Source of the DNA: an uncultured Chloroflexia bacterium
GTDB lineage: Bacteria > Chloroflexota > Dehalococcoidia > Dehalococcoidales > RBG-16-60-22
Length of the DNA stretch: 64,000 bases
Direction: 5' to 3'
NCBI GenBank assembly: GCA_963727315.1
Contig: CAVSFE010000002.1
Span: 279,723-343,722, forward strand
The position numbers and the translations under genes were made by a program. Positions 31,229-50,696 of this stretch are shown here, one piece after another (positions within the stretch are counted from its first letter, which is position 1; every line of letters starts with the position of its first letter). The notes beneath the pieces were generated by a model, which did not search any database, was not told the DNA's origin, and was given only the letters and a program-made list of their open reading frames with translations.

Positions 31229-31892
31229 CTATTTTTTAAGCGGTCTTAGTATCGCACGGCAGGGGCCGGCGTCGCCGTGCCACATGAGGAGAGGCAGGCA
31301 GAGCAGCTCGTACTCGCCGGGCGGTACTCCCGCCAGGGCGCAGTCCTCGAGGACATAAATGCCGGCGCCGAGCAGCGCCGTGTGCGTTTTGCCGATGTTT
31401 TCCGGGCGTTTGTAGGAGCCGATAGTGATAAAGTCGATGCCGACCAGCTTAACTCCCACTTTCACGAGGTAATCGGCGGCGCTTTCGTCCAGGTAGCAAT
31501 AGTCGTCGTTGAACTTTTCGGCCTCGTAGCCCGCCGGCGAGTTGCGGGTCTTGAAGAGCACGCGCTCGCCTTTTTTGATGCCGTGTTTTTTCAGCTCGGC
31601 GGCTTTAATGCTTTCCCTGTCCTTGATGGCGATAACGCGCGCCGGGCCGATCGTGGCATCGAGCGGCATATCGCTGATGGTCGAGCCGCCCGCGATAAAG
31701 TGGAGGGGGGAATCGATGTGCGTGCCGGTGTGGGAGATGATTTCCAGCATGGACATGGTGACTTTAGAGCCGAGATTCGCGGTCGCTGTAGCGGTAAATC
31801 TTGGGCGGAACGGGGTCGGTGGGGAAATAGACCATCCCCTGCTTGAGGGGGACGGAGATATCATACCAGCCTTTGGGCGCTTTTACAGCCAT
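31229..31892 (-). pseudogene. Cyclase family protein (kynurenine formamidase-like), frameshifted as assembled
   Basis: ATG 31892 follows GGAGGT and gives MAVKAPKGWYDISVPLKQGMVYFPTDPVPPKIYRYSDR, stopping at 31767..31769. The next frame continues ANLGSKVTMSM...HTGTHIDSPLHF (cyclase HxGTHxDxPxH motif) to 31229. The switch lies near 31775..31790. Confidence 0.8.
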
Positions 31893-31946: not shown

Positions 31947-32438
31947 CTATTCCTTTTTCTTAAACTGGTATTCCCCGGGCATCTGGCTGGTCGGGACACC
32001 GGCGGCGACGGATTTTGCCCAGGTAGTAGCCCTCTCCAGTTCTCCATCCAGCAGCGGTCCTTTAGCGCTTTTAACGAAAAATCCCTGGGGCTGCGCGGTG
32101 GCGTTGCCGCCTTTTTCTTTGATGGCGGCTTCGATGCGCGGCGCCGCATACCCGAACATTTTAACGAAGATATTTTTCAGACGGGTATCAAAAGCGGCCA
32201 GGCGTTTCTCTTTTAACGCTTCCGCGGGTAGTTTATCCAGGAAATCTTTGATGGCGGCGGTCTGCCGGCCTCCCTGCGTGGGCGAACCGATGATGACGAA
32301 ATGGTAAGGGGCGATATCCTCCGCCTTGACCTCCCCGACCTTGACAACCCTGGTCTCCTCCCCGAACCCGCTGCCGATGGCCTTAGCGATCTGCTCCGTG
32401 TTGCCATACTGTGAATCATAGATGACAATAGCTTTCAT
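31947..32438 (-). CDS. Flavodoxin family protein
   Basis: The 163-aa ORF reads MKAIVIYDSQYGNTEQIAKAI...IIGSPTQGG, a typical flavodoxin FMN-binding pattern. Confidence 0.85.
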   Translation of the reverse strand: MKAIVIYDSQYGNTEQIAKAIGSGFGEETRVVKVGEVKAEDIAPYHFVIIGSPTQGGRQTAAIKDFLDKLPAEALKEKRLAAFDTRLKNIFVKMFGYAAPRIEAAIKEKGGNATAQPQGFFVKSAKGPLLDGELERATTWAKSVAAGVPTSQMPGEYQFKKKE

Positions 32439-32512: not shown

Positions 32513-32564
32513 CGTGGGGCGGGGCGCGCTTAAGCGCGCCCCGCCCCACGTTTTTATTTTTTTA
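32513..32564. terminator. Perfect GC-rich palindromic hairpin with T-tract (terminator-like)
   Basis: CGTGGGGCGGGGCGCGC-TTAA-GCGCGCCCCGCCCCACG (32513..32550) is followed on the plus strand by TTTTTATTTTTTT. It lies between two minus-strand genes, so the strand it acts on is unclear. Confidence 0.6.
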
Positions 32565-32589: not shown

Positions 32590-33197
32590 TTACTTCGTAT
32601 GCGTCCCGAACGCTCCCGGCCCCCCCACAAACTCCGCCGGGTACTTAAATTTCATTTTTACCAGCGCCACCATCTGCTTGCCGAGGTCGTCCAGGGCTTT
32701 CAGGCACTTGGGCATCTTTTGAAGCTCCTCGGGACTGCCGACGTAGGCCGAGACCTGGTTGGCGGGCAGCATCCGCCGCTGCACGATGAAGTAGCGTCAG
32801 GTCTTTTAAAACGTTCGCCATCCCCAGGCTGCCGCAGGAAGTCACCGCCCCGCAGACTTTATTGTTGTAGTTATGCTCCGTGCCGCGCGAGGGAAATTGA
32901 GCGGTCGATGACCGCCTTCGCCTGCGCCGTCATGCCCCAGAAATACACCGGCGTCCCCAGGATCAGGCCGTCCGCCGCCATGATCTTCTCGAAAAGCTCC
33001 GGCGCGTCGTCCTTGATGTGGCACTTGCCCGCCTTCATGCAGTCCCAGCAGCCGTCGCAGGGCTGGATGTTTTTCCCGGCGACGCTGTAAAGCTCGGTCT
33101 CCGCCCCTTCTCCCGCCGCCCCGGCTAAAGCCTTACCCAGCATGGCGACGGTGTTGCCGTTTTTCCTTGGACTGAAAGAGATGGCTAAGATTTTCAT
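32590..33197 (-). pseudogene. Iron-sulfur flavoprotein / NADPH-dependent FMN reductase family, two frameshifts as assembled
   Basis: The N-terminal part reads MKILAISFSPRKNGNT...CDGCWDCMKAGKC (compact Isf-type Cys motif)...GTPVYFWGMTAQAKAVIDRS. It continues in a second frame (GTEHNYNNKVCGAVTSCGSLGMANVLKDL) and a third (YFIVQRRMLPANQVSAYVGSPEELQK...). The switches lie near 32860 and 32790, giving ~201 aa when repaired. Confidence 0.75.
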
Positions 33198-33220
33198 GTG
33201 ATGCTCCTGTATCAGTTTTT

Positions 33221-33353
33221 ACCTCACCCTGCCCTCTCCAACCTCTTCATTTTTCCGACCCTTCACTATTTGGTTGGAGAGGGTATTAAAATGAAGAGGG
33301 GCTGACGCCCCTCTTAGACGCCCTGCTTGTGGGGGCGTGCGAAGTGCCCCCAC
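33221..33353. repeat. GC-rich palindromic repeat family, copy R3
   Basis: CCTCACCCTGCCCTCTCCAACC...GGTTGGAGAGGG (stem arms 33232..33243 and 33272..33283). Hairpin AAGAGGGGC-TGAC-GCCCCTCTT lies at 33294..33315, followed by AGACGCCC. An extra hairpin GTGGGGGC...GCCCCCAC lies at 33329..33353. Confidence 0.8.
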
Positions 33354-33370
33354 ACACTTATCGTATCAAC

Positions 33371-35228
33371 CTATTTATCGTAATCGGCGTCGGTCGCCGC
33401 GTCCGGTAGCCCGCAAGAGTCGTCCTCGCACTCGGCGCCGGACTTCTTGGCGCGCCACTTGTCAACGGACGCGCTCCCCGAGTAACCGTAGTCCGCGGCC
33501 TTCCACAGCGGGCTCGTTTCCCCGCCCACGACGATGATATTGATGTTTTCCGGCCGATGATAGGGGGCGATGAGCGCGTCGTCCGGTAGGTTTTTCCACG
33601 AGGCGTATGGCTCCACCCCCTTGTAGGCCTCGGATGCCACCAGCATGTCGATATAGTCGGTCTTCCAGTACTGCCCCGCCCTCATCTTGATGTTCTGCGA
33701 TAAATGCCGCGCGAAGTCCAGCTTGGTAGTAAAGCCCTCGTTCTCCTTCAGGTTCCTGGCGACCATCGGGTCCATGATTATCGTCGCCGAGGAATTGAGC
33801 GGGGGCATGACGGCCAGTTCGATATTCAGTTCTTCCGTTATCGAGCGGTTGGCGGCCGCGCCGGTACTGTTCAGCATGGACCACCCCCGGAAGATGCTCA
33901 CCACGCTCTCGTCCGCCTTGAAGCCCTTGCCCGCGTGGAAAGGCTCCCAGACGCTCCTCTCCTCGTTCTCGGCGCAGCACATATTATTATAGGTATGGTT
34001 GTTCCCCTGGGAGCTCCAGAGCGTCCTTCCGGCCTTGGCATAGCCCCAGCAGATGCTCATCAGCGTCCAGGCCCTGCCGATGACGGAGTTCGCCATGTTC
34101 ACCGCGCTGAAAGCCCCGACGCCGCTGTTCATGCCGATTTCATTGCGGATGGGCCCGTTCACCAGGAGCATGGCCTCGAATGGGGTCGTCGAGGGCATGA
34201 GCGACGGTTGCCTGAGGGACGCGACGGCGAGTATCACCGGGAAATATTCCGGCCTGGCGCCGGCCATGACTGCGATAACCGCAATCTCCGCCACGGTGTG
34301 CCGGGCGACCTCTCTGGTTTCGAACTGGAATGTCTCGGCGACGACGTCGTCCGGGGCGGCGGCGGTGCCGGCGAGCATCTTCTGCACCCGCTCTTCGGTG
34401 GGCAGGATTATCGGCGAGCCGTCCGTCCAGCCCTTTTCGTAGAAGAGGCGCTGCAGATTGTCTTCCGTGTCCGGCTTCAGGTACTTCGGGGCCGGGACGG
34501 CTTTGACCGCTTGAGTTGCCCCAGCCTCCGGTTTCCTTTCTTTTAACGGCTTGGTCAGGACGTCGATTATCTCTTCGATGACCGGCCGGCCGGTGTCGGG
34601 GTCGTTGCCGACGATGTATTTATCGAGGGCTTCGGGGGACAGGCCGATAACCGGGTGCGGCGTAAAAATAATGGGCAAATAGCTTTTCGACGTTCTCTGG
34701 TTTTCGTCGGCGACGCTCTTGAAGGCGAGCGTCGAAACCGGGGCAACCGGTATGCCGTAAGTATATTCGAGTTTGCGGGTGCCGGCAGCGACCGCTGCCA
34801 CGCAGCCCGGTCAGCCCGCCACCCCGAGGACGACCGCGTTCCCTTTCACTTTGACCTCTTCCCAGAGCTCGTTGTTATCGTCCATGAAGACGCTGCCCGG
34901 TTTGCGCTTGCGGATGGTGGTGACGGACGGCATGTTTTCGGCAAACCACTTCTGCAGTTGCCGCATGAACTGGTAGCTCCCGCCGAAGCCGGTATCCACG
35001 AGGTAGACCGTTTTTTTATCCAGCGTACCCAGCCGCTTGGCCATCGGGCCGGAAGGCGGCGGGCCGCCAAATCCCGGCGGAGGTCCTCCCTGAGGTCTGG
35101 GAGGTCCGCCCATAGGACCTCGCGACGGCGCCGCTGGGAGGTCCGCCCATGCCCGGCGGAGGCCCTCCCGTAATTTTCTGGACTCCCGCTTCGGGGCTGA
35201 TGACATTATCCAGCAGTTGAATCGTCAT
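33371..35228 (-). CDS. Candidate selenoprotein: UGSC-family-like N-terminal domain (G-U-P-G-C) fused to a ~370-aa conserved uncharacterised domain. It needs UGA read-through at 34811..34813 and repair of one frameshift near 35114..35133.
   Basis: ATG 35228 follows GGAGG (MTIQLLDNVISPEAG...). A Pro/Gly-rich linker carries a 1-nt frame switch. The sequence then reads KRLGTLDKKTVYLVDTGFGG...NAVVLGVAG-TGA-PGCVAAVAAGTRKLEYTYGIPVAPVSTLAF...PHPVIGL. ORFs 34811..35206 and 33371..34801 are in the same frame. The C-terminal part contains GWTDGSPIILPTEERV, AVMAGARPEYFPV, VNGPIRNE and CAENEERS. Confidence 0.6.
34778..34813 (-). promoter_or_regulatory. In-frame UGA plus SECIS-like stem-loop (candidate selenocysteine insertion signal)
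   Basis: The minus strand reads UGA CCG GGC UGC GUG GCA GCG GUC GCU GCC GGC ACC. The stem is GGCAGC / GCUGCC (34794..34799 and 34784..34789) with apical loop GGUC (34790..34793). A possible lower GUG/CAC extension exists. The loop begins at nt 21 counted from the U of UGA. Confidence 0.5.
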
Positions 35229-35257
35229 GGCTTTCCTCCGTTCGATGGTTCTAGTAT

Positions 35258-36223
35258 TCAGGTGCGGGGGCCGATGTTCTTGACCCAGGTCAGGTCCTCT
35301 CTGGCCCTTCCCCACCCTGCCTCCGCCGCCCCCTGCATCATCGGGGCCGGGTTTTTCCTCATTTCTTCCATGCGCTTCCGGTTCGCCTCTTCCTGCCGCT
35401 TCATGCCTTCGGGGGTGGTATAGTTGGCCATCCGCTCGCAGATGCCCCGCATCATCTTCTCCGGTTCCGGCATCGGCATAACGTAAAGCACGTCGTTTTC
35501 AATCCCCTTTTTAAAGATATGCGCCAGCTCGACGGGATCGAAGCCGAAAGAGTAATGGTGGCGCATAAACGCGATGGTCTTTTCATTGGTGTTGTAGCCG
35601 GTGTTGGCCAGGCGCTTCGGGCGCGTGTAGGAAGATTCGCCGATGTTGGTCTTGATGCCGCCGGGGCAAAGGCAGGATACGCCGATGCCGTACGGCTTGA
35701 GGGCGATGTAATAGCTCTCCATGAGGTTGATGACCGCGGCTTTAGCCGCCGAGTACGGGGCTGTCCCGACTCCTCCCATGAGTCCCCCCATCGAGGCGGT
35801 GGTGGCGATATGCCCGCCCTTGCCGGCCTTTATCATGCGAGGTACGAACGTCACCATGCCGTTGACGACCCCGCCCAGGCAGACTCCCATGACCCAGTCG
35901 TAGTCTTCAAACGTCGAGGCTTCCGCCGGCCCGAAGGCATTGACGCCCGCCGTATTGAATAAAAGCTGCGGCGGCTCCCCGAACACCTTTTCCACCTCGT
36001 CGGCGGCTTCGGCATAAGCCTTGCGGTCGGTGATGTCCAGCTTGATGGCATGGATTTTCACTTTTTTATCTTTAAAATAGGCCTTGGCCTCGTCGAGGTG
36101 GTCCTGGCGGATATCGGCGATGCAAATTTTGCAGCCGGCTTCCGAAAAGACCTTGGCCTGGCCGAGCCCGGCCCCGGAAGCCCCTCCGGTGATAAACGCG
36201 ACTTTGCCCGCGAAATCTTTCAT
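35258..36223 (-). CDS. SDR family oxidoreductase (paralog 2)
   Basis: 321-aa ORF with TGGASGAGLG (NAD(P) binding) and YSAAK (YxxxK). The gap to the downstream gene start is 29 nt. Confidence 0.9.
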   Translation of the reverse strand: MKDFAGKVAFITGGASGAGLGQAKVFSEAGCKICIADIRQDHLDEAKAYFKDKKVKIHAIKLDITDRKAYAEAADEVEKVFGEPPQLLFNTAGVNAFGPAEASTFEDYDWVMGVCLGGVVNGMVTFVPRMIKAGKGGHIATTASMGGLMGGVGTAPYSAAKAAVINLMESYYIALKPYGIGVSCLCPGGIKTNIGESSYTRPKRLANTGYNTNEKTIAFMRHHYSFGFDPVELAHIFKKGIENDVLYVMPMPEPEKMMRGICERMANYTTPEGMKRQEEANRKRMEEMRKNPAPMMQGAAEAGWGRAREDLTWVKNIGPRT

Positions 36224-36247
36224 TAGCTGCCTCTCTTTTTGGCGATA

Positions 36248-37234
36248 TTATTTCTTCGGCGGCGGCGCGCCGGGCATACGGGACGGCTTGACCCACGTCA
36301 AATCTTTGCGCGCCTGCCCAAAACCCACGTCCCCGCTGTTCCGGTACGGACTCATGGGCTGGCGCTTGGCCATCTCCTCGAACCTTTTTCGCATCAGCTC
36401 TTCCTGCCGCTTGATGCCTTCGGGACTGGACCAGTTGATGACCCGCTCGAAGTTGTCCCGCAGCATCTGCTCGGCGTTGGGATACGGGATGATATAGAGT
36501 TGCTCGTTCTCGATGCCCCTCTTGAGCCACCCCGCCAGCTCCACGGGGTCCATCCCCTGCGCGTGAATGGAGCGCAGCAGGTCGATGGTCTTTTCCGTGA
36601 CGTTATAACCGGTATTTTTCAAATGCTCCGGCCGCGTGTACACCGCCTCGGCGATGTTCGACCTGATATTGGCAGGGCAAAGGACGGAGACGCCGATGCC
36701 ATAGGGCTTGAGCGCCGTGTAATAGCTCTCCATGAGGTTATTGACCGCCGCCTTGGCCGCCGAGTACGGCGCGCACCCCGATGTCCCCATGAACCCTCCC
36801 ATCGAGGATGTGGTGGCGATATAGCCTCCCTGGCCGGCCTTGATCATGCGCGGGACGAACGTCACCATGCCGTTGATAACGCCGCCGAGATCGACGCCCA
36901 TCACCCAGTCGTAGTCTTCGAACGTCGAGGCTTCCGCCGGCCCGAAGGTGTTGACGCCCGCGGTATTGAACAGCATCTGGGGCGGGCCCCCGAACGCCTT
37001 TTCCACCTCGTCGGCGGCTTCGGCATACGCCTTGCGGTCGGTGATATCCAGCTTTATGGTATGGACTTTAATCTTTTTGTCTTTGAAATACGCCTTCGCC
37101 TCGTCGAGATGGTCCTGCCGGACATCGGCGATGACGATTTTACAGCCCGCCTCCGAGAACACCTTGGCCTGGCCGAAGCCGGCGCCGGAAGCCCCTCCGG
37201 TAATAAACAGGACTTTACCCGCAAAATCTTTCAT
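36248..37234 (-). CDS. SDR family oxidoreductase (paralog 1)
   Basis: 328-aa ORF with TGGASGAGFG and YSAAK. The first ~190 aa are nearly colinear and mostly identical with the adjacent SDR. The gap between the two genes is 24 nt. Confidence 0.9.
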   Translation of the reverse strand: MKDFAGKVLFITGGASGAGFGQAKVFSEAGCKIVIADVRQDHLDEAKAYFKDKKIKVHTIKLDITDRKAYAEAADEVEKAFGGPPQMLFNTAGVNTFGPAEASTFEDYDWVMGVDLGGVINGMVTFVPRMIKAGQGGYIATTSSMGGFMGTSGCAPYSAAKAAVNNLMESYYTALKPYGIGVSVLCPANIRSNIAEAVYTRPEHLKNTGYNVTEKTIDLLRSIHAQGMDPVELAGWLKRGIENEQLYIIPYPNAEQMLRDNFERVINWSSPEGIKRQEELMRKRFEEMAKRQPMSPYRNSGDVGFGQARKDLTWVKPSRMPGAPPPKK

Positions 37235-37378
37235 TATTCTTCTCCGTTATCCGTTATATTGTTATATAGCGTAATATAAACGGGGAGAGAATGCAACTGA
37301 GGGACTTCCCAGGACTTTGAGTGATTGATTTTCATGAAAAGGGTGATGCACCAGCGGTTTCATTATATCGATCTGGTA

Positions 37379-37672
37379 TTAAGGGAGTTTCTTGACTATC
37401 GCGGCAAACTCCTGTTGCGTGTATGCCTTGCATGTCGTTACTTTAACATTACCTTGCGCCGTCAGTCCCAGGACAAAGGCTAGGCCGGCTTCATCACTGG
37501 GCATTTCGCCGATGGCTACATAATCGTACTCTCCGGTAATTACATAAAAGCCCAATAATTTACCGCCCATCTTTTCCAATGTTTTTAACGCCAGGTCGAT
37601 TCGCTGCGGCGCATCTTTGATGGTTTTAGCTCCCTGTTCTGTCAATTTCATTAATAGAACATTTCTTACCAT
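37379..37672 (-). CDS. GYD domain-containing protein
   Basis: The 97-aa ORF follows GGAGGTGG. It has the family-defining ...ITGEYDYVAIGE... motif within a small alpha/beta protein. Confidence 0.8.
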   Translation of the reverse strand: MVRNVLLMKLTEQGAKTIKDAPQRIDLALKTLEKMGGKLLGFYVITGEYDYVAIGEMPSDEAGLAFVLGLTAQGNVKVTTCKAYTQQEFAAIVKKLP

Positions 37673-37742
37673 GGACCACCTCCTTTTTTATGGATTTCGC
37701 TGATGCATCACCCGGCGCTATAAATCTATCCCCAACCACGGA

Positions 37743-40334
37743 CTATGTCAATCCCTCTCCTGCTTTCTTCTTCAACTCATATAGTTTATTCAGGGCTTCC
37801 AGCGGCGTCAGGCCGTCGAGGTCAAGCCCTTTGAGCTCTTCCTCCACCGCCGATTTCCCACCGAACAGAGGCATCTGCTGGACGGGTTCCCGCGAACGTT
37901 TGGCGGGCTTCCCCTGACGCCCGTTGGTCTCGAGCTCATCGAGGACCTCGCGGGCGCGGTGCAGCACCGACCGCGGCAGGCCGGCCAGTTGCGCCACGTG
38001 GATGCCGTAGCTCTTGTCCACCCCGCCCGGCACGATTTTGTGCAGGAAAATCACTTTACCCGCCTCCTCGATGACCGCCACGTTGAAATTTTTGACCCGG
38101 GGCAGGTACCCCGCTAGAGCCACCATCTCGTGGTAGTGCGTGGCGAAGACTGTCCGGGCGCCGAGCCCTTTATAGTTGTGGATGTATTCGGCGACGGCGC
38201 GGGCGATGGAGAGTCCGTCGTAGGTAGACGTGCCGCGGCCGATTTCGTCCAGGATGAGGAGGGAGCGCGGCGTGGCGTTATTTAAAATATTGGCGGTTTC
38301 GACCATCTCCACCATAAAAGTCGACTGCCCGGCGGCGAGGTCGTCCCGCGCCCCGATGCGGGTGAAAATGCGGTCGACGATGCCTATTTTGGCCGACTCC
38401 GCCGGGACGTAGCTGCCGATTTGCGCCAGCAGGACGATAAGGGCGACCTGCCTCAAATACGTGGACTTGCCGGACATATTCGGCCCGGTGAGGACGATAA
38501 GCTGGGCGTCGTCGCGGGACAAATAGATGTCGTTGGGGACGAAGCTGCCGGCGGCGAGGCTCTTCTCCACGACCGGATGTCGGCCTTGGCGAATATCAAT
38601 TACGTTACCGTCGTTAAGCTCCGGGCGGACATAGTTATGGTGTACCGCTACCTCCGCCAGACTCGAAAAGACATCGAGATGCGCCAGGGTGGACGCCAGC
38701 GCCAGGACCTTTTCGCTTTCGGCGGCCACCTGTTGACACACCCTCCGGAAAAGGTCGGTCTCCATCGCCTCGATGCGGTCGCGGGCGTTCAGGATGAGCG
38801 ATTCGTACTCTTTAAGCTCCGGCGTGAAAAAGCGCTCGCCGTTGACGAGGGTCTGCTTGCGGATAAAGTCCGCCGGTACCTGCTTGAGATTGGCGTTGGA
38901 CACCTCGATGTAGTAGCCGAAGACGTTGTTAAAGCCGACCTTGAGGTTTTTAATGCCGGTGCGCTCGCGTTCCTTCCGCTCGAGGTCGGCGAGGTACTTG
39001 CGGGCATTGCCGGATGACTGGCGCAGGTCGTCCAGCTCTTTAGAAAACCCCGGTCTTATCACCCCGCCCTCGCCCGGAGCTGACGAAGGCTCATCGACGA
39101 TGGCGCCCGCGATTAAATCGACCACCTCCCGGCAGGGCTTCAGTCCGTCCTTGAGCCAGTCGATAGCCCCGGCGCTGTCACCGCTATCTATTATCTCTTT
39201 AAGTTTGGGTACGGCTTCCAGGCTGCGGCGTAAGCTTACCAGCTCCCGCGGGATGGCGATTTCCCCCCGCACCCGGTTAATCAGTCGCTCGAGGTCGGAG
39301 ACATCTTTTAATGCCCCCATAAGCTGGCGGCGGACGAGAGCGACTCCGGCAAACCATTCGATGGCGTCGAGTCTCTTATCCAGCGCCGCCGCGTCCAGCA
39401 GGGGCTGCCCCAGCCATTTCCGCAGCAGCCGGCCGCCCATCGGCGTTTTCGTAGCGTCAATCACCGACAGCAGCGAGCCTTCCACCGACCCCGAGCGGGC
39501 GCCCTGGAAAATCTCCAGGTTACGCTGGGTCTGCTCGTCCAGGGCCATGAAACCGTCGGTCGAATAGGTGGTAAGATGGGTCAGTTGCCCCAGCACGGTC
39601 TTTTGCGTCTCCCCGATGTAGTGGACGATCGCCCCCGCCGCCCTTATCGCCAGCGGCAGGCGCGCGCAGCCGTAGCCTTCGAGGGTAGTCACACCGAAGT
39701 GTTCGAGCAGGGCCTGGCGGGCAATCTCCACTTCAAAACGATAGGGGTCGAGGCGGGTAACGTTTTCGGCGATTCCCAGGCTGTCCAGATTGACCCCCTC
39801 GGCGGCGATGATCTCCGATGGATTCAACCTCTGCAACTCCGTAATCGCCCTGGTCAAAGGCAGCTGTGTCACGGCGAACTCGCTGGTGGTGATGTCTACG
39901 AAGGCCAGGCCGACCTCCCCTTCTCCCACCGCCAAGCCGGCCAGGTAGTTGTTGCTTTTGCTGTTTAACAGTCCCGGCTCGACGACCGTGCCCGGCGTCA
40001 CCAGCCGGACGACGTCGCGCTCGAGCATCCCTTTGGTCTCGCCGGGCTTGGTGAGCTGCTCGCAGATGGCGACTTTGTAGCCTCGATTTATCAGTCTGGC
40101 CAGGTAGCCGTCCAGCGCGTGGTACGGGATGCCCGCCAGCGGAATCTTGTTGCCCTTGCCCATTTCCCGGGAGGTCAGGACGATTTCCAGCTCTTTAGAG
40201 GCTATCCGGGCGTCCTCGTCGAAGGTCTCGTAAAAGTCCCCCAGTCTAAAGAGCACGATGGCGTTGGGATACTGCTTCTTGATGCGGAGGTACTGGCGGC
40301 GGACGGGGGTAACGTCATCTTTCATGGCAAGCAT
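37743..40334 (-). CDS. mutS: DNA mismatch repair protein MutS
   Basis: 863-aa ORF. The N-terminal mismatch-binding region reads TPVRRQYLRIKKQYPNAIVLFRLGDFYETF. Walker A is GPNMSGKST, with DEIGRGTSTYDG following. Confidence 0.95.
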   Translation of the reverse strand: MLAMKDDVTPVRRQYLRIKKQYPNAIVLFRLGDFYETFDEDARIASKELEIVLTSREMGKGNKIPLAGIPYHALDGYLARLINRGYKVAICEQLTKPGETKGMLERDVVRLVTPGTVVEPGLLNSKSNNYLAGLAVGEGEVGLAFVDITTSEFAVTQLPLTRAITELQRLNPSEIIAAEGVNLDSLGIAENVTRLDPYRFEVEIARQALLEHFGVTTLEGYGCARLPLAIRAAGAIVHYIGETQKTVLGQLTHLTTYSTDGFMALDEQTQRNLEIFQGARSGSVEGSLLSVIDATKTPMGGRLLRKWLGQPLLDAAALDKRLDAIEWFAGVALVRRQLMGALKDVSDLERLINRVRGEIAIPRELVSLRRSLEAVPKLKEIIDSGDSAGAIDWLKDGLKPCREVVDLIAGAIVDEPSSAPGEGGVIRPGFSKELDDLRQSSGNARKYLADLERKERERTGIKNLKVGFNNVFGYYIEVSNANLKQVPADFIRKQTLVNGERFFTPELKEYESLILNARDRIEAMETDLFRRVCQQVAAESEKVLALASTLAHLDVFSSLAEVAVHHNYVRPELNDGNVIDIRQGRHPVVEKSLAAGSFVPNDIYLSRDDAQLIVLTGPNMSGKSTYLRQVALIVLLAQIGSYVPAESAKIGIVDRIFTRIGARDDLAAGQSTFMVEMVETANILNNATPRSLLILDEIGRGTSTYDGLSIARAVAEYIHNYKGLGARTVFATHYHEMVALAGYLPRVKNFNVAVIEEAGKVIFLHKIVPGGVDKSYGIHVAQLAGLPRSVLHRAREVLDELETNGRQGKPAKRSREPVQQMPLFGGKSAVEEELKGLDLDGLTPLEALNKLYELKKKAGEGLT

Positions 40335-47630: not shown

Positions 47631-50624
<2,994 letters not shown>

Positions 50625-50696
50625 TGCTTCAGGTTTGATATTAGATGTATTTTGATTGCAGATGTATTTTACTTTAGACCCATCAACTCTATTCGG

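What the first reader, a model, noticed from the sequence alone, without database searches (positions are those of the whole stretch)
33371..37672. Tight operon SDR-SDR-(Sec-domain fused to an unnamed ~370-aa domain), with a GYD protein upstream: uncharacterised redox module
On the minus strand, two SDR paralogs and the candidate selenoprotein are separated by only 24 and 29 nt. Each has its own GGAG-type RBS. A GYD-domain gene sits 145 nt upstream.

The C-terminal ~370 aa of the third gene carries motifs (GWTDGSPIILPTEERV, AVMAGARPEYFPV, VNGPIRNE, CAENEERSVWEPF). I recognise these as a recurrent bacterial family of unknown function but cannot name it. Here the domain is physically fused to the U-x-x-C domain.

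No step of any known pathway is evident. A selenol/thiol-dependent reductase working with NAD(P)H-dependent SDRs is an inference only.
Basis: partly seen in the sequence, partly recalled or inferred. Interest (0 to 1): 0.65.

Follow-up and report, generated by a model that had tools for sequence, protein, structure and literature searches.

The report
Selenoprotein paired with lignin-type dehydrogenases
In a wetland/peat Dehalococcoidales genome, two close relatives of the lignin beta-ether dehydrogenase LigD sit directly upstream of a widespread, uncharacterised selenocysteine protein (a UGSC domain fused to an unnamed 370-residue domain), which suggests a testable glutathione-free way of cleaving lignin-type ether bonds.

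Summary
The minus-strand cluster is real: GYD, SDR-A, SDR-B, then a gene with an in-frame TGA. The spacers are 144, 24 and 29 nt.

The U-x-x-C domain is the known UGSC selenoprotein family (Pfam PF24696). A conserved SECIS-like hairpin follows the TGA. The C-terminal ~370 aa matches no Pfam, NCBIfam or PDB entry.

This fusion is not unusual. In 80 species-representative genomes, 91 of 96 copies of the C-domain are fused after a UGSC domain: 74 with Sec, 10 with Cys. Where the two domains are separate genes, they are adjacent. A "UGSC/Unknown_1" fusion was noted in 2008.

- The ATG 29 nt after SDR-B is out of frame with the Sec domain. The window carries one extra base near 35125 that all related contigs lack. 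The neighbouring gene has two such insertions, so this is probably assembly error.
- GYD is not a conserved partner.

New lead: both SDRs are 53-56% identical to Sphingobium LigD. Lig-type SDR + fusion modules recur, sometimes in tandem pairs. Other Lig-type SDR loci carry GSTs instead, and none carries both.

Best hypothesis, about 35% and inferred from context only: a selenol-based, glutathione-independent beta-etherase-like reductive cleavage.

The parts
37723..37751 (-). Sigma-70-like promoter match upstream of the GYD gene
   Evidence: TTGACA-17-TAGATT, 10 of 12 positions. This is a consensus match only.
37379..37672 (-). GYD-domain protein (97 aa). First gene of the cluster, not a conserved partner.
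   Evidence: PF08734, 86 bits. No homologue in 87 related loci. The syntenic locus L001 has mutS directly upstream of the SDR.
36248..37234 (-). SDR-A, a LigD-like C-alpha-dehydrogenase paralogue (328 aa)
   Evidence: Best PDB hit is 4Y98 (LigD), E 6.5e-97, 56% identity over 282 aa. S-Y-K, the NAD Asp and P188 are kept. The tetrad Asn is replaced by Asp.
35258..36223 (-). SDR-B, a LigD/LigO-like C-alpha-dehydrogenase paralogue (321 aa), 73% identical to SDR-A
   Evidence: 4Y98 E 3.2e-92 (53% identity); LigO 52% identity. The tetrad Asn is replaced by Cys. It is the orthologue of the single SDR upstream of the fusion gene in L001 (86% identity).
33371..35228 (-). UGSC-family selenoprotein fused to an unnamed C-domain. 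It is 618 codons once one extra base is removed. As written, the frame breaks near 35125.
   Evidence: There were 3072 close homologues, and the 120 listed are all truncated after the TGA.
35124..35127 (-). Position of the single extra base that shifts the frame between the conserved N-terminus and the UGSC domain
   Evidence: Every related contig in runs X1-X4 lacks 1 nt here. The same pattern occurs at 32794 and 32888/9 in the next gene.
34619..35044 (-). UGSC domain (flavodoxin-like alpha/beta fold) carrying U-P-G-C
   Evidence: PF24696: 46-49 bits against a cutoff of 25. NF041046: 48 bits, below its cutoff of 125. Foldseek on the full-length Cys homologue matches flavodoxin-like domains.
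34811..34813 (-). In-frame TGA read as selenocysteine
   Evidence: It aligns with Cys of CxxC in homologues. TGA is kept in 74 of 91 fused copies.
34784..34799 (-). SECIS-like hairpin GGCAGC-GGUC-GCUGCC, starting 11 nt after the TGA
   Evidence: 6 pairs, 4 of them with compensatory changes across 12 loci.
33374..34486 (-). Unnamed C-domain (~370 aa). Family-wide invariant residues are T, N-G-P, N, A-N, R, E-x-E, W and H.
   Evidence: No Pfam, NCBIfam or PDB match. 3416 clusters at 50% identity. AF2 pLDDT is mostly 85-96. Best Foldseek hit has E 2e-3 and TM 0.18.
33413..33430 (-). C-terminal tail Cys pair, C-E-D-D-S-C (CX4C), in a low-confidence, flexible tail
   Evidence: The tail has pLDDT below 50. 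A CxDGxC tail is shared by the UPGC and UDGC subfamilies and is absent in USTC/CSTC.
33294..33315 (-). Terminator-like hairpin after the fusion gene. It lies inside a repeated element.
   Evidence: Word depth is 1000-3000x, and relatives skip 155 nt here.
32590..33197 (-). FMN_red / flavodoxin-2-like gene downstream, broken by two single-base insertions. A possible electron relay.
   Evidence: PF03358 on the first 108 aa. Frames. Relatives lack 1 nt at 32794 and 32888/9. The gene is intact in L001. It is also a neighbour in L003/4 and L019.
31947..32438 (-). Flavodoxin gene, syntenic with L001
   Evidence: PF00258; synteny.

Best explanation
The cluster encodes a two-step module built like the bacterial beta-aryl-ether (beta-etherase) pathway, with a selenoprotein in place of the glutathione-dependent enzymes.

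Shown:
- SDR-A and SDR-B are NAD-type short-chain dehydrogenases of the LigD/LigO/LigL family.
- The next gene is a Sec-containing UGSC-family protein fused to an unnamed domain.
- This SDR+fusion pair recurs in several lineages.

Inferred:
1. The SDRs oxidise a secondary (benzylic) alcohol to a ketone, as LigD does with guaiacylglycerol-beta-guaiacyl ether.
2. The C-domain binds the alpha-substituted ketone.
3. The selenolate of U-P-G-C attacks the carbon next to the carbonyl and displaces the aryloxide (or another leaving group). This gives a Se-C adduct that stands in for the glutathione adduct of LigE/F.
4. The resolving Cys of UxxC attacks Se, releases the de-etherified ketone and leaves a Se-S bond. 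That is the LigG step. It is also the logic of the glycine and proline reductase selenoproteins.
5. The Se-S bond is re-reduced through the flexible C-terminal CX4C tail. Electrons come from a flavoprotein or thioredoxin-type system: FMN_red and flavodoxin lie downstream here, and TrxR-like genes lie next to other family members.

The frameshift near the 5' end is most likely an assembly error.
For: - SDR identity: LigD 4Y98 E 6.5e-97 / 3.2e-92 and 56% / 53% identity; LigO 46% / 52%; LigL 39% / 42%. The PDB codes are tied to LigD/O/L in PMC4858972. S144, Y158, K162, the NAD Asp and P188 are conserved.
- Recurrence: a LigD-like SDR sits directly upstream of the UPGC fusion in L001, L002 and L016-L018. 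A LigO-like SDR sits next to UDGC fusions in L016, L017, L027 and L028. Lig-type SDRs are also near fusions in L023 (Thermodesulfobacteriota), L085 and L061 (Actinomycetes).
- Reciprocal scan with Lig-type SDRs: 12 of 80 metagenome loci carry the fusion. Four of them (L096, L097, L105, L144) have tandem [SDR+fusion]x2 modules, as expected for stereo-complementary enzyme sets.
- Complementary distribution: GST genes occur in 6 Lig-type SDR loci, the fusion in 12, and both together in none. No GST was found in the window or in any fusion locus.
- The UGSC domain and the C-domain are an obligate pair.
- Sec strongly predominates over Cys (74 against 10; 255 against 21 in GOS). That fits a catalytic nucleophile.
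- TrxR-like genes lie within 3 kb in 13 of 87 loci.
- The CX4C tail is found in the SDR-linked subfamilies (UPGC, UDGC) and in one stand-alone C-domain protein, and is absent from USTC/CSTC.
- Source environments are wetland and peat.
- L016 adds a URO-D family methyltransferase, an IclR regulator and an MFS transporter.
Against: - All functional evidence is gene context. No substrate, activity or transcript was tested.
- The C-domain has no detectable relation to GSTs or to any known enzyme.
- The UGSC domain shows no HMM-level relation to the GrdB/PrdB family.
- Only about half of UPGC/UDGC loci, and almost no USTC loci, have a Lig-type SDR. Family-wide neighbours are heterogeneous: ABC transporters, AMP-ligases, PQQ dehydrogenases. 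The lignin reading can therefore hold at most for these subfamilies.
- Several full-length family members have lost both Cys and Sec. The C-domain may therefore have chemistry of its own.
- The catalytic-tetrad Asn of the SDRs is replaced by Asp or Cys.
- Most Lig-type SDR loci (68 of 80) have no fusion.
- Model coordinates could not be inspected, so the position of UxxC relative to the C-domain pocket is unknown.
Confidence: 0.35

Rival explanations
1. A generic selenol/thiol oxidoreductase. The UGSC domain would be a thioredoxin-like redox carrier, recycled by a TrxR-like flavoprotein, and the C-domain an unrelated reductase or binding module for some other substrate such as an amino-acid or organic-acid derivative. 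In this reading the neighbouring SDRs share regulation or a broad catabolic island, not a substrate.
For: Neighbours across the family are diverse: TrxR-like in 14 of 87 loci, ABC transporters, AMP-binding ligases, TctC, amidohydrolases. selD-selA-selB lie next to the gene in three or four loci. Most members are not next to a Lig-type SDR.
Against: The SDR+fusion pair recurs in different flanking contexts and orientations and as tandem double modules. Each fusion subfamily has its own Lig-type SDR subfamily. GSTs and fusions are mutually exclusive next to Lig-type SDRs.
Confidence: 0.25
2. Same pathway but a different step. The fusion protein acts on the SDR's substrate or product without cleaving an ether. 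Options are a racemase/epimerase at the carbon next to the carbonyl, a reductive dehydroxylase, or only the thioether/selenoether lyase step (a LigG analogue). An unidentified enzyme would do the cleavage.
For: Family-wide invariant residues of the C-domain are acid/base types (E-x-E, H, R, N, T) rather than Cys. Variants without Cys or Sec exist. The weak fold hits are to hydro-lyase and ring-hydrolase folds.
Against: No other candidate cleavage enzyme is conserved in the module. The strong preference for Sec in the SDR-linked subfamilies (all UPGC/UDGC copies have Sec) points to nucleophilic or redox catalysis.
Confidence: 0.15
3. The gene is a pseudogene in this organism. The frameshift at about 35125 would be real, and only a truncated or no product would be made.
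For: The window as given has the conserved start (35228) out of frame. The in-frame ATG at 35206 lacks an RBS.
Against: The window has the same kind of single extra base at 32794 and 32888/9 and at three intergenic sites relative to all relatives. That pattern is typical of assembly error. The rest of the 1.8-kb frame is intact and 78-84% identical to relatives.
Confidence: 0.06
4. The TGA is an ordinary stop, so the locus encodes two separate proteins of 131 aa and 476 aa rather than a selenoprotein.
For: Gene callers annotate it this way: the 120 listed close homologues in the database all start after the TGA. No Sec machinery or tRNA-Sec lies in the window.
Against: The TGA falls at the Cys of a CxxC motif in full-length homologues. 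The frame continues without a start or RBS. The hairpin covaries. The half-domains are not independent folds.
Confidence: 0.03

Closest known systems
UGSC family (seleno)protein (Pfam PF24696, NCBIfam NF041046; Zhang and Gladyshev 2007/2008, PMC1976440 and PMC2398784), including their 'UGSC/Unknown_1' fusion
   Same: The N-terminal domain passes the Pfam threshold. It has U-x-x-C with Sec/Cys alternation and a SECIS element directly downstream. Function is unknown in the literature. NCBI names some truncated homologues this way.
   Different: The motif is UPGC, not UGSC. The score is far below the NCBIfam equivalog cutoff (48 against 125 bits). The domain is fused to a 370-aa domain. The 2008 figure of 'Unknown_1' is held only as an image, so I could not verify that it is the same domain. 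The model of the Cys homologue matches flavodoxin-like domains, whereas the 2008 paper predicted a thioredoxin-like fold.
Sphingobium sp. SYK-6 beta-aryl-ether pathway: C-alpha-dehydrogenases LigD/LigO/LigL/LigN, GST beta-etherases LigE/LigF/LigP, glutathione lyase LigG (PMC4858972)
   Same: SDR-A and SDR-B are 53-56% identical to LigD. Paralogous dehydrogenases sit side by side. A thiol/selenol-bearing protein is encoded immediately downstream, as in the SYK-6 lig gene cluster (from memory, not checked here). The proposed chemistry is nucleophilic displacement next to the new carbonyl, followed by reductive release.
   Different: There is no GST domain anywhere in the locus. The second enzyme is a non-homologous selenoprotein. 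The nucleophile would be protein-bound, not glutathione. The tetrad Asn is replaced in the SDRs. The host is an anaerobic Chloroflexota lineage. Activity is untested.
Glycine reductase GrdB/GrdA and D-proline reductase PrdB selenoproteins (Pfam PF07355)
   Same: PrdB has a UxxC motif (table in PMC2398784). The remaining parallels are from my own knowledge, not tested here: Sec acts as a nucleophile in reductive cleavage of a bond alpha to a carbonyl, and the Se-S bond is resolved by a thioredoxin system.
   Different: No HMM-level similarity even at E <= 10. The partner subunits differ, and there is no pyruvoyl proprotein gene nearby.
Class Ia ribonucleotide reductase C-terminal CX4C tail (E. 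coli NrdA Cys754/Cys759; from my own knowledge)
   Same: A flexible C-terminal Cys-x4-Cys tail that could shuttle reducing equivalents to an active-site redox pair.
   Different: This is an analogy only. The proteins are unrelated, and the role of the tail here is untested.

Membership tests
UGSC family (PF24696 / NF041046) | Passes the Pfam gathering threshold | tested here: met
   46.4 bits (49.2 with the corrected N-terminus) against a cutoff of 25.
UGSC family (PF24696 / NF041046) | Passes the NCBIfam equivalog cutoff for the stand-alone ~150-aa protein | tested here: not met
   48.2 bits against a cutoff of 125. This is a divergent, fused subfamily.
UGSC family (PF24696 / NF041046) | Sec (TGA) or Cys at the first position of a U/C-x-x-C motif | tested here: met
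   GVAG-U-PGC in the window. The position aligns with Cys in P0135 and others. Across 80 genomes there are 74 Sec and 10 Cys copies.
Bacterial selenoprotein gene | SECIS stem-loop just downstream of the UGA, conserved in structure | tested here: met
   Hairpin at 34784-34799 with loop GGUC; 4 of 6 pairs covary across 12 loci. No Rfam family matched at gathering score.
Bacterial selenoprotein gene | Host encodes selA, selB, selD and tRNA-Sec | not testable with these tools
   None lies in the 64-kb window and the rest of the genome is not available. selD/A/B do lie next to homologues in L065, L066 and L071.
Lig C-alpha-dehydrogenases (LigD/O/L/N, SDR) | Close sequence similarity to the characterised enzymes | tested here: met
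   56% and 53% identity to LigD over 282 aa, E 1e-92 to 1e-97.
Lig C-alpha-dehydrogenases (LigD/O/L/N, SDR) | Catalytic tetrad N115-S144-Y158-K162 (LigL numbering), NAD-selective Asp36 and P188 | tested here: inconclusive
   S, Y, K, D36 and P188 are kept. N115 is Asp in SDR-A and Cys in SDR-B and most orthologues.
Lig C-alpha-dehydrogenases (LigD/O/L/N, SDR) | Oxidises guaiacylglycerol-beta-guaiacyl ether stereoisomers | not testable with these tools
   Requires an enzyme assay.
GST-type beta-etherases and lyase (LigE/F/P, LigG) | GST_N / GST_C domains | tested here: not met
   The fusion protein has no GST domain. The window and all fusion loci have no GST homologue. The fusion protein may work like these enzymes, but it is not a member of their family.
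GrdB/PrdB selenoprotein B (PF07355) | Match to the GRDB profile | tested here: not met
   No hit at E <= 10 for four UGSC domains.
Thioredoxin-fold redox proteins | Thioredoxin fold around the UxxC motif | tested here: not met
   The AF2 model of the full-length Cys homologue (pLDDT 88) has a beta-alpha-beta Rossmann/flavodoxin-like order. Its PDB matches are flavodoxin-like domains. This was tested on a homologue that is 40% identical, not on the window protein itself.

The most novel reading that the evidence does not exclude
The UPGC/UDGC branches of the UGSC-fusion family are selenocysteine-dependent, glutathione-independent beta-etherases. Together with LigD-like dehydrogenases they would give anaerobic Dehalococcoidales and other peat and soil bacteria a redox-neutral route for cleaving the beta-O-4 bond of lignin fragments. 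If so, this assigns a first function to one of the most abundant uncharacterised prokaryotic selenoprotein families, and to a new catalytic domain with no solved relative.
Probability: 0.25. Interest if true: 0.9.

Novelty: new variant of a known kind. Interest (0 to 1): 0.7.

Why it matters
UGSC proteins are among the commonest selenoproteins in aquatic metagenomes (255 Sec sequences in GOS), and their function has stayed unknown in reviews from 2007 to 2026. This work adds three things:
- The UGSC domain almost always works with one specific unnamed 370-residue domain.
- Two branches of the family are paired with LigD-type dehydrogenases.
- GSTs and the selenoprotein are alternatives next to such dehydrogenases.

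That turns an "unknown redox module" into a concrete assay with commercially available lignin model dimers. Enzymatic beta-ether cleavage is so far known only from glutathione-dependent enzymes of aerobic sphingomonads. If the hypothesis holds, it would be the first such enzyme for anoxic peat and wetland carbon turnover, and a new biocatalyst class. If it fails, the obligate UGSC/C-domain pairing and the missing Pfam family are still useful for annotation: most database entries are truncated at the TGA.

Tried and rejected
- Naming the C-domain failed. Pfam, including E <= 10 on 10 stand-alone members, NCBIfam, PDB by sequence and by profile, and Foldseek against PDB all gave nothing significant. 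The best fold hits were class I fumarate hydratase (E 2e-3, TM 0.18) and Toblerone-fold cyanuric acid hydrolases (E 0.2). I treat these as non-significant.
- Homology of UGSC to GrdB/PrdB: no hit.
- Checking that the 2008 'Unknown_1' domain is the same domain: the figure panel is held only as an image, and the sequence supplement is cut.
I folded the 476-aa window ORF and a full-length Cys homologue instead.
- Transcript evidence: only three small Nanopore metatranscriptomes were available, and nothing laid on the region.
- A 37-nt duplication as the cause of the frameshift was considered. It was dropped in favour of a single extra base once related contigs were laid on the region.
- Programmed frameshifting was rejected because relatives encode a single frame.
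- My ORF caller picks antisense ORFs in high-GC loci (clusters 1 and 5), so neighbour counts for those loci are lower bounds.
- No paper linking UGSC proteins to lignin or Lig dehydrogenases was found.

Full report
**1. What is there**

On the minus strand there are four ORFs:
- GYD, 37379-37672
- SDR-A, 36248-37234
- SDR-B, 35258-36223
- a long frame from 35206 to 33371, interrupted only by a TGA at 34811-34813 inside GVAG-U-PGC

The spacers are 144, 24 and 29 nt. Each start is preceded by a purine-rich RBS. A promoter-like match lies upstream of GYD and a terminator-like hairpin lies after the last gene. Pfam confirms GYD (PF08734) and two classical SDRs.

**2.

The ATG 29 nt after SDR-B (35228) has the RBS ACGGAGGAA. 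It encodes MTIQLLDNVISPEAGVQ, which is the conserved N-terminus of the homologues in L001 and L002. In the window it is in a different frame from the UGSC domain. The in-frame ATG at 35206 has no RBS.

I laid the contigs of four wetland metagenomes on the region. Every related contig lacks one base at 35124-35127. Deleting one base gives a single 618-codon frame.

The window also has single extra bases at 32794 and 32888/9, which break the downstream FMN_red-like gene twice. It has further extra bases at three intergenic sites. The window always has the extra base, so I read this as assembly error rather than biology. The source contig is 1.56 Mb, and related sequence is found in wetland and peat metagenomes.

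**3. The selenoprotein**

- Residues about 49-191 match Pfam UGSC (PF24696) at 46-49 bits against a cutoff of 25. They are far below the NCBIfam equivalog cutoff.
- The TGA aligns with the first Cys of CxxC in full-length homologues such as P0135 (GSCPGC) and P0170 (GGCSTC).
- Eleven nucleotides after the TGA there is a hairpin, GGCAGC-GGUC-GCUGCC. Across 12 loci of the same subfamily, 4 of its 6 pairs keep pairing through changes on both sides.
- No Sec machinery or tRNA lies in the window. selD-selA-selB lie beside homologues in three other genomes.
- The literature describes 'UGSC-containing protein' as a major selenoprotein family of unknown function. A 2008 paper mentions a 'UGSC/Unknown_1' fusion (PMC1976440, PMC2398784, PMC13188914). 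I could not verify that Unknown_1 is this domain.

**4. The C-domain**

- It has no Pfam, NCBIfam or PDB relative by sequence or profile.
- An exhaustive search found 3416 clusters at 50% identity.
- AF2 models are confident: the window ORF has pLDDT 79.6, with the C-domain mostly 85-96. A full-length Cys homologue has pLDDT 88 and pTM 0.86.
- Foldseek against PDB finds nothing significant for the C-domain (best E 2e-3, TM 0.18). It places the UGSC domain among flavodoxin-like alpha/beta domains.
- Family-wide invariant residues are T (LPTEE), N-G-P, N, A-N, R, E-x-E, W and H. No Cys is universal.
- The UPGC and UDGC subfamilies carry a flexible C-terminal C-x-D-G-x-C tail that USTC/CSTC members lack.

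**5. The two domains are an obligate pair**

- In 80 species-representative genomes from many phyla, 91 of 96 C-domain copies are fused after a UGSC domain in one read-through frame. Of these, 74 have TGA, 10 have Cys and 7 have no redox motif. At least 593 loci were found in total, including the cultured Pseudonocardia acaciae DSM 45401.
- Stand-alone C-domain genes lie directly next to a stand-alone, TGA-split UGSC gene, in either order.
- Reverse-order fusions exist.

The fusion is real, but it is common rather than special to this window.

**6. The SDRs give the lead**

- The best solved relatives of both SDRs are the C-alpha-dehydrogenases of the Sphingobium SYK-6 lignin beta-aryl-ether pathway. 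LigD (4Y98) scores E 6.5e-97 and 3.2e-92, with 56% and 53% identity. LigO and LigL follow.
- Ser-Tyr-Lys, the NAD-selective Asp and P188 are conserved. The tetrad Asn is replaced by Asp or Cys.
- The orthologous SDR sits immediately upstream of the UPGC fusion in every Dehalococcoidales locus examined, in otherwise different contexts.
- A second, LigO-like SDR subfamily accompanies the UDGC fusion subfamily.
- Searching metagenomes with Lig-type SDRs, 12 of 80 loci carry the fusion. Four show tandem [SDR+fusion]x2 modules.
- Other Lig-type SDR loci carry GSTs (6 loci), GcvT/LigM-like O-demethylases or OYE-like reductases.
- GST and fusion never co-occur. No GST is present in the window or in any fusion locus.
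- GYD has no counterpart elsewhere.

**7. Interpretation**

The best-supported reading is a beta-etherase-like module in which a protein-bound selenol/thiol pair replaces glutathione and the LigE/F/G enzymes.

- *Shown:* the identities of the parts and their recurrent pairing.
- *Inferred:* the substrate class, Sec attack next to the carbonyl, resolution by the Cys, and recycling via the CX4C tail and flavoproteins.

The chemistry has precedent in LigE/F/G (PMC4858972) and, from general knowledge, in the glycine and proline reductase selenoproteins.

The weaknesses are real:
- The evidence is context only.
- Only about half of UPGC/UDGC loci, and few other family members, have a Lig-type SDR.
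- Neighbours across the family are heterogeneous: TrxR-like in 14 of 87 loci, ABC transporters, AMP-ligases.
- Cys/Sec-less variants exist.

I put this explanation at about 0.35. A generic selenol oxidoreductase is at 0.25, another step of the same pathway at 0.15, a real pseudogene at 0.06, and an ordinary stop codon at 0.03.

**8. Novelty**

The selenoprotein family and, probably, the fusion are already known as sequences of unknown function. The C-domain is still unnamed. The link to LigD-type dehydrogenases, and the either/or distribution with GSTs, was not found in the literature I could search. I file this as a new variant of a known kind of system: the beta-aryl-ether pathway with a non-homologous selenoprotein in place of the GSTs.

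Noticed in passing
window 32512, 32530, 32794, 32888-32889, 35124-35127, 35252-35254: The window has one extra base at each of these places relative to every related metagenome contig. Three of them break genes. This suggests an indel-prone (long-read?) assembly, so other apparent frameshifts in this window deserve the same suspicion.
   Followed up: partly
window 32590-33197 (-): An FMN_red / flavodoxin-2-like gene is split over three frames by two single-base insertions. It is intact in the syntenic locus L001 (201 aa).
   Followed up: yes
window 33213-33367, hairpin 33282-33345: Related contigs skip this 155-nt segment. The hairpin inside it (AAGAGGGGCGTCAGCCCCTCTT) has 1000-3000x word depth in two metagenomes. 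It looks like a small, highly repeated element inserted between the fusion gene and the next gene, and it also supplies the terminator-like hairpin.
   Followed up: no
window 32513-32550: A perfect palindrome with a 17-bp G+C-rich stem and T-runs on both sides lies between the flavodoxin and FMN_red-like genes. It looks like a bidirectional terminator.
   Followed up: no
window 35090-35145 (-): The 17-nt direct repeat ATGGGCGGACCTCCCAG occurs twice, 37 nt apart, inside the Pro/Gly-rich linker that precedes the UGSC domain. The linker is length-variable among relatives; one contig has a GCC insertion at 35098.
   Followed up: partly
window 33413-33430 (-); tails of L001, L002, L016-L018, L021, L023, L097, L103, L105, L144: A C-terminal C-x-D-G-x-C-G tail is shared by the UPGC and UDGC subfamilies and by one stand-alone C-domain protein (P0440). 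It is absent from USTC/CSTC members, which end at ...SVDxWR.
   Followed up: partly
L065, L066, L071, L072: selD, selA and selB (NCBIfam equivalogs) lie next to the UGSC-fusion gene in four loci (Alpha- and Gammaproteobacteria, Rhizobiaceae and Oricola MAGs). This looks as if the Sec machinery is kept largely for this protein.
   Followed up: partly
P0213, P0394, P0399 and others; P0157, P0193, P0196, P0234: Reverse-order fusions exist, with the C-domain followed by UGSC and truncated at Sec. There are also 710-740-aa proteins with two matched C-domain stretches.
   Followed up: no
L005/L006 (Gaiellaceae), L020, L036, L052, L054, L094: Two or three paralogous UGSC-fusion genes lie side by side in one locus. 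In Gaiellaceae they sit behind a branched-chain-amino-acid-type ABC transporter and opposite a TrxR-like gene.
   Followed up: no
window 47633-50625 (-): A complete 23S rRNA gene is present, but Rfam found no 5S or 16S and ARAGORN found no tRNA anywhere in the 64 kb. The rRNA genes appear unlinked.
   Followed up: no
L016 11953-14193: A URO-D-family methyltransferase (the type used by anaerobic O-demethylases), an IclR regulator and an MFS transporter lie next to the double SDR+fusion module of a peat Dehalococcoidales MAG.
   Followed up: partly
window 31229-31864 (-): The cyclase-family (PF04199) ORF has an odd Pro/Ser-rich N-terminal 35 aa that does not match the profile. This may be another frame problem upstream.
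   Followed up: no
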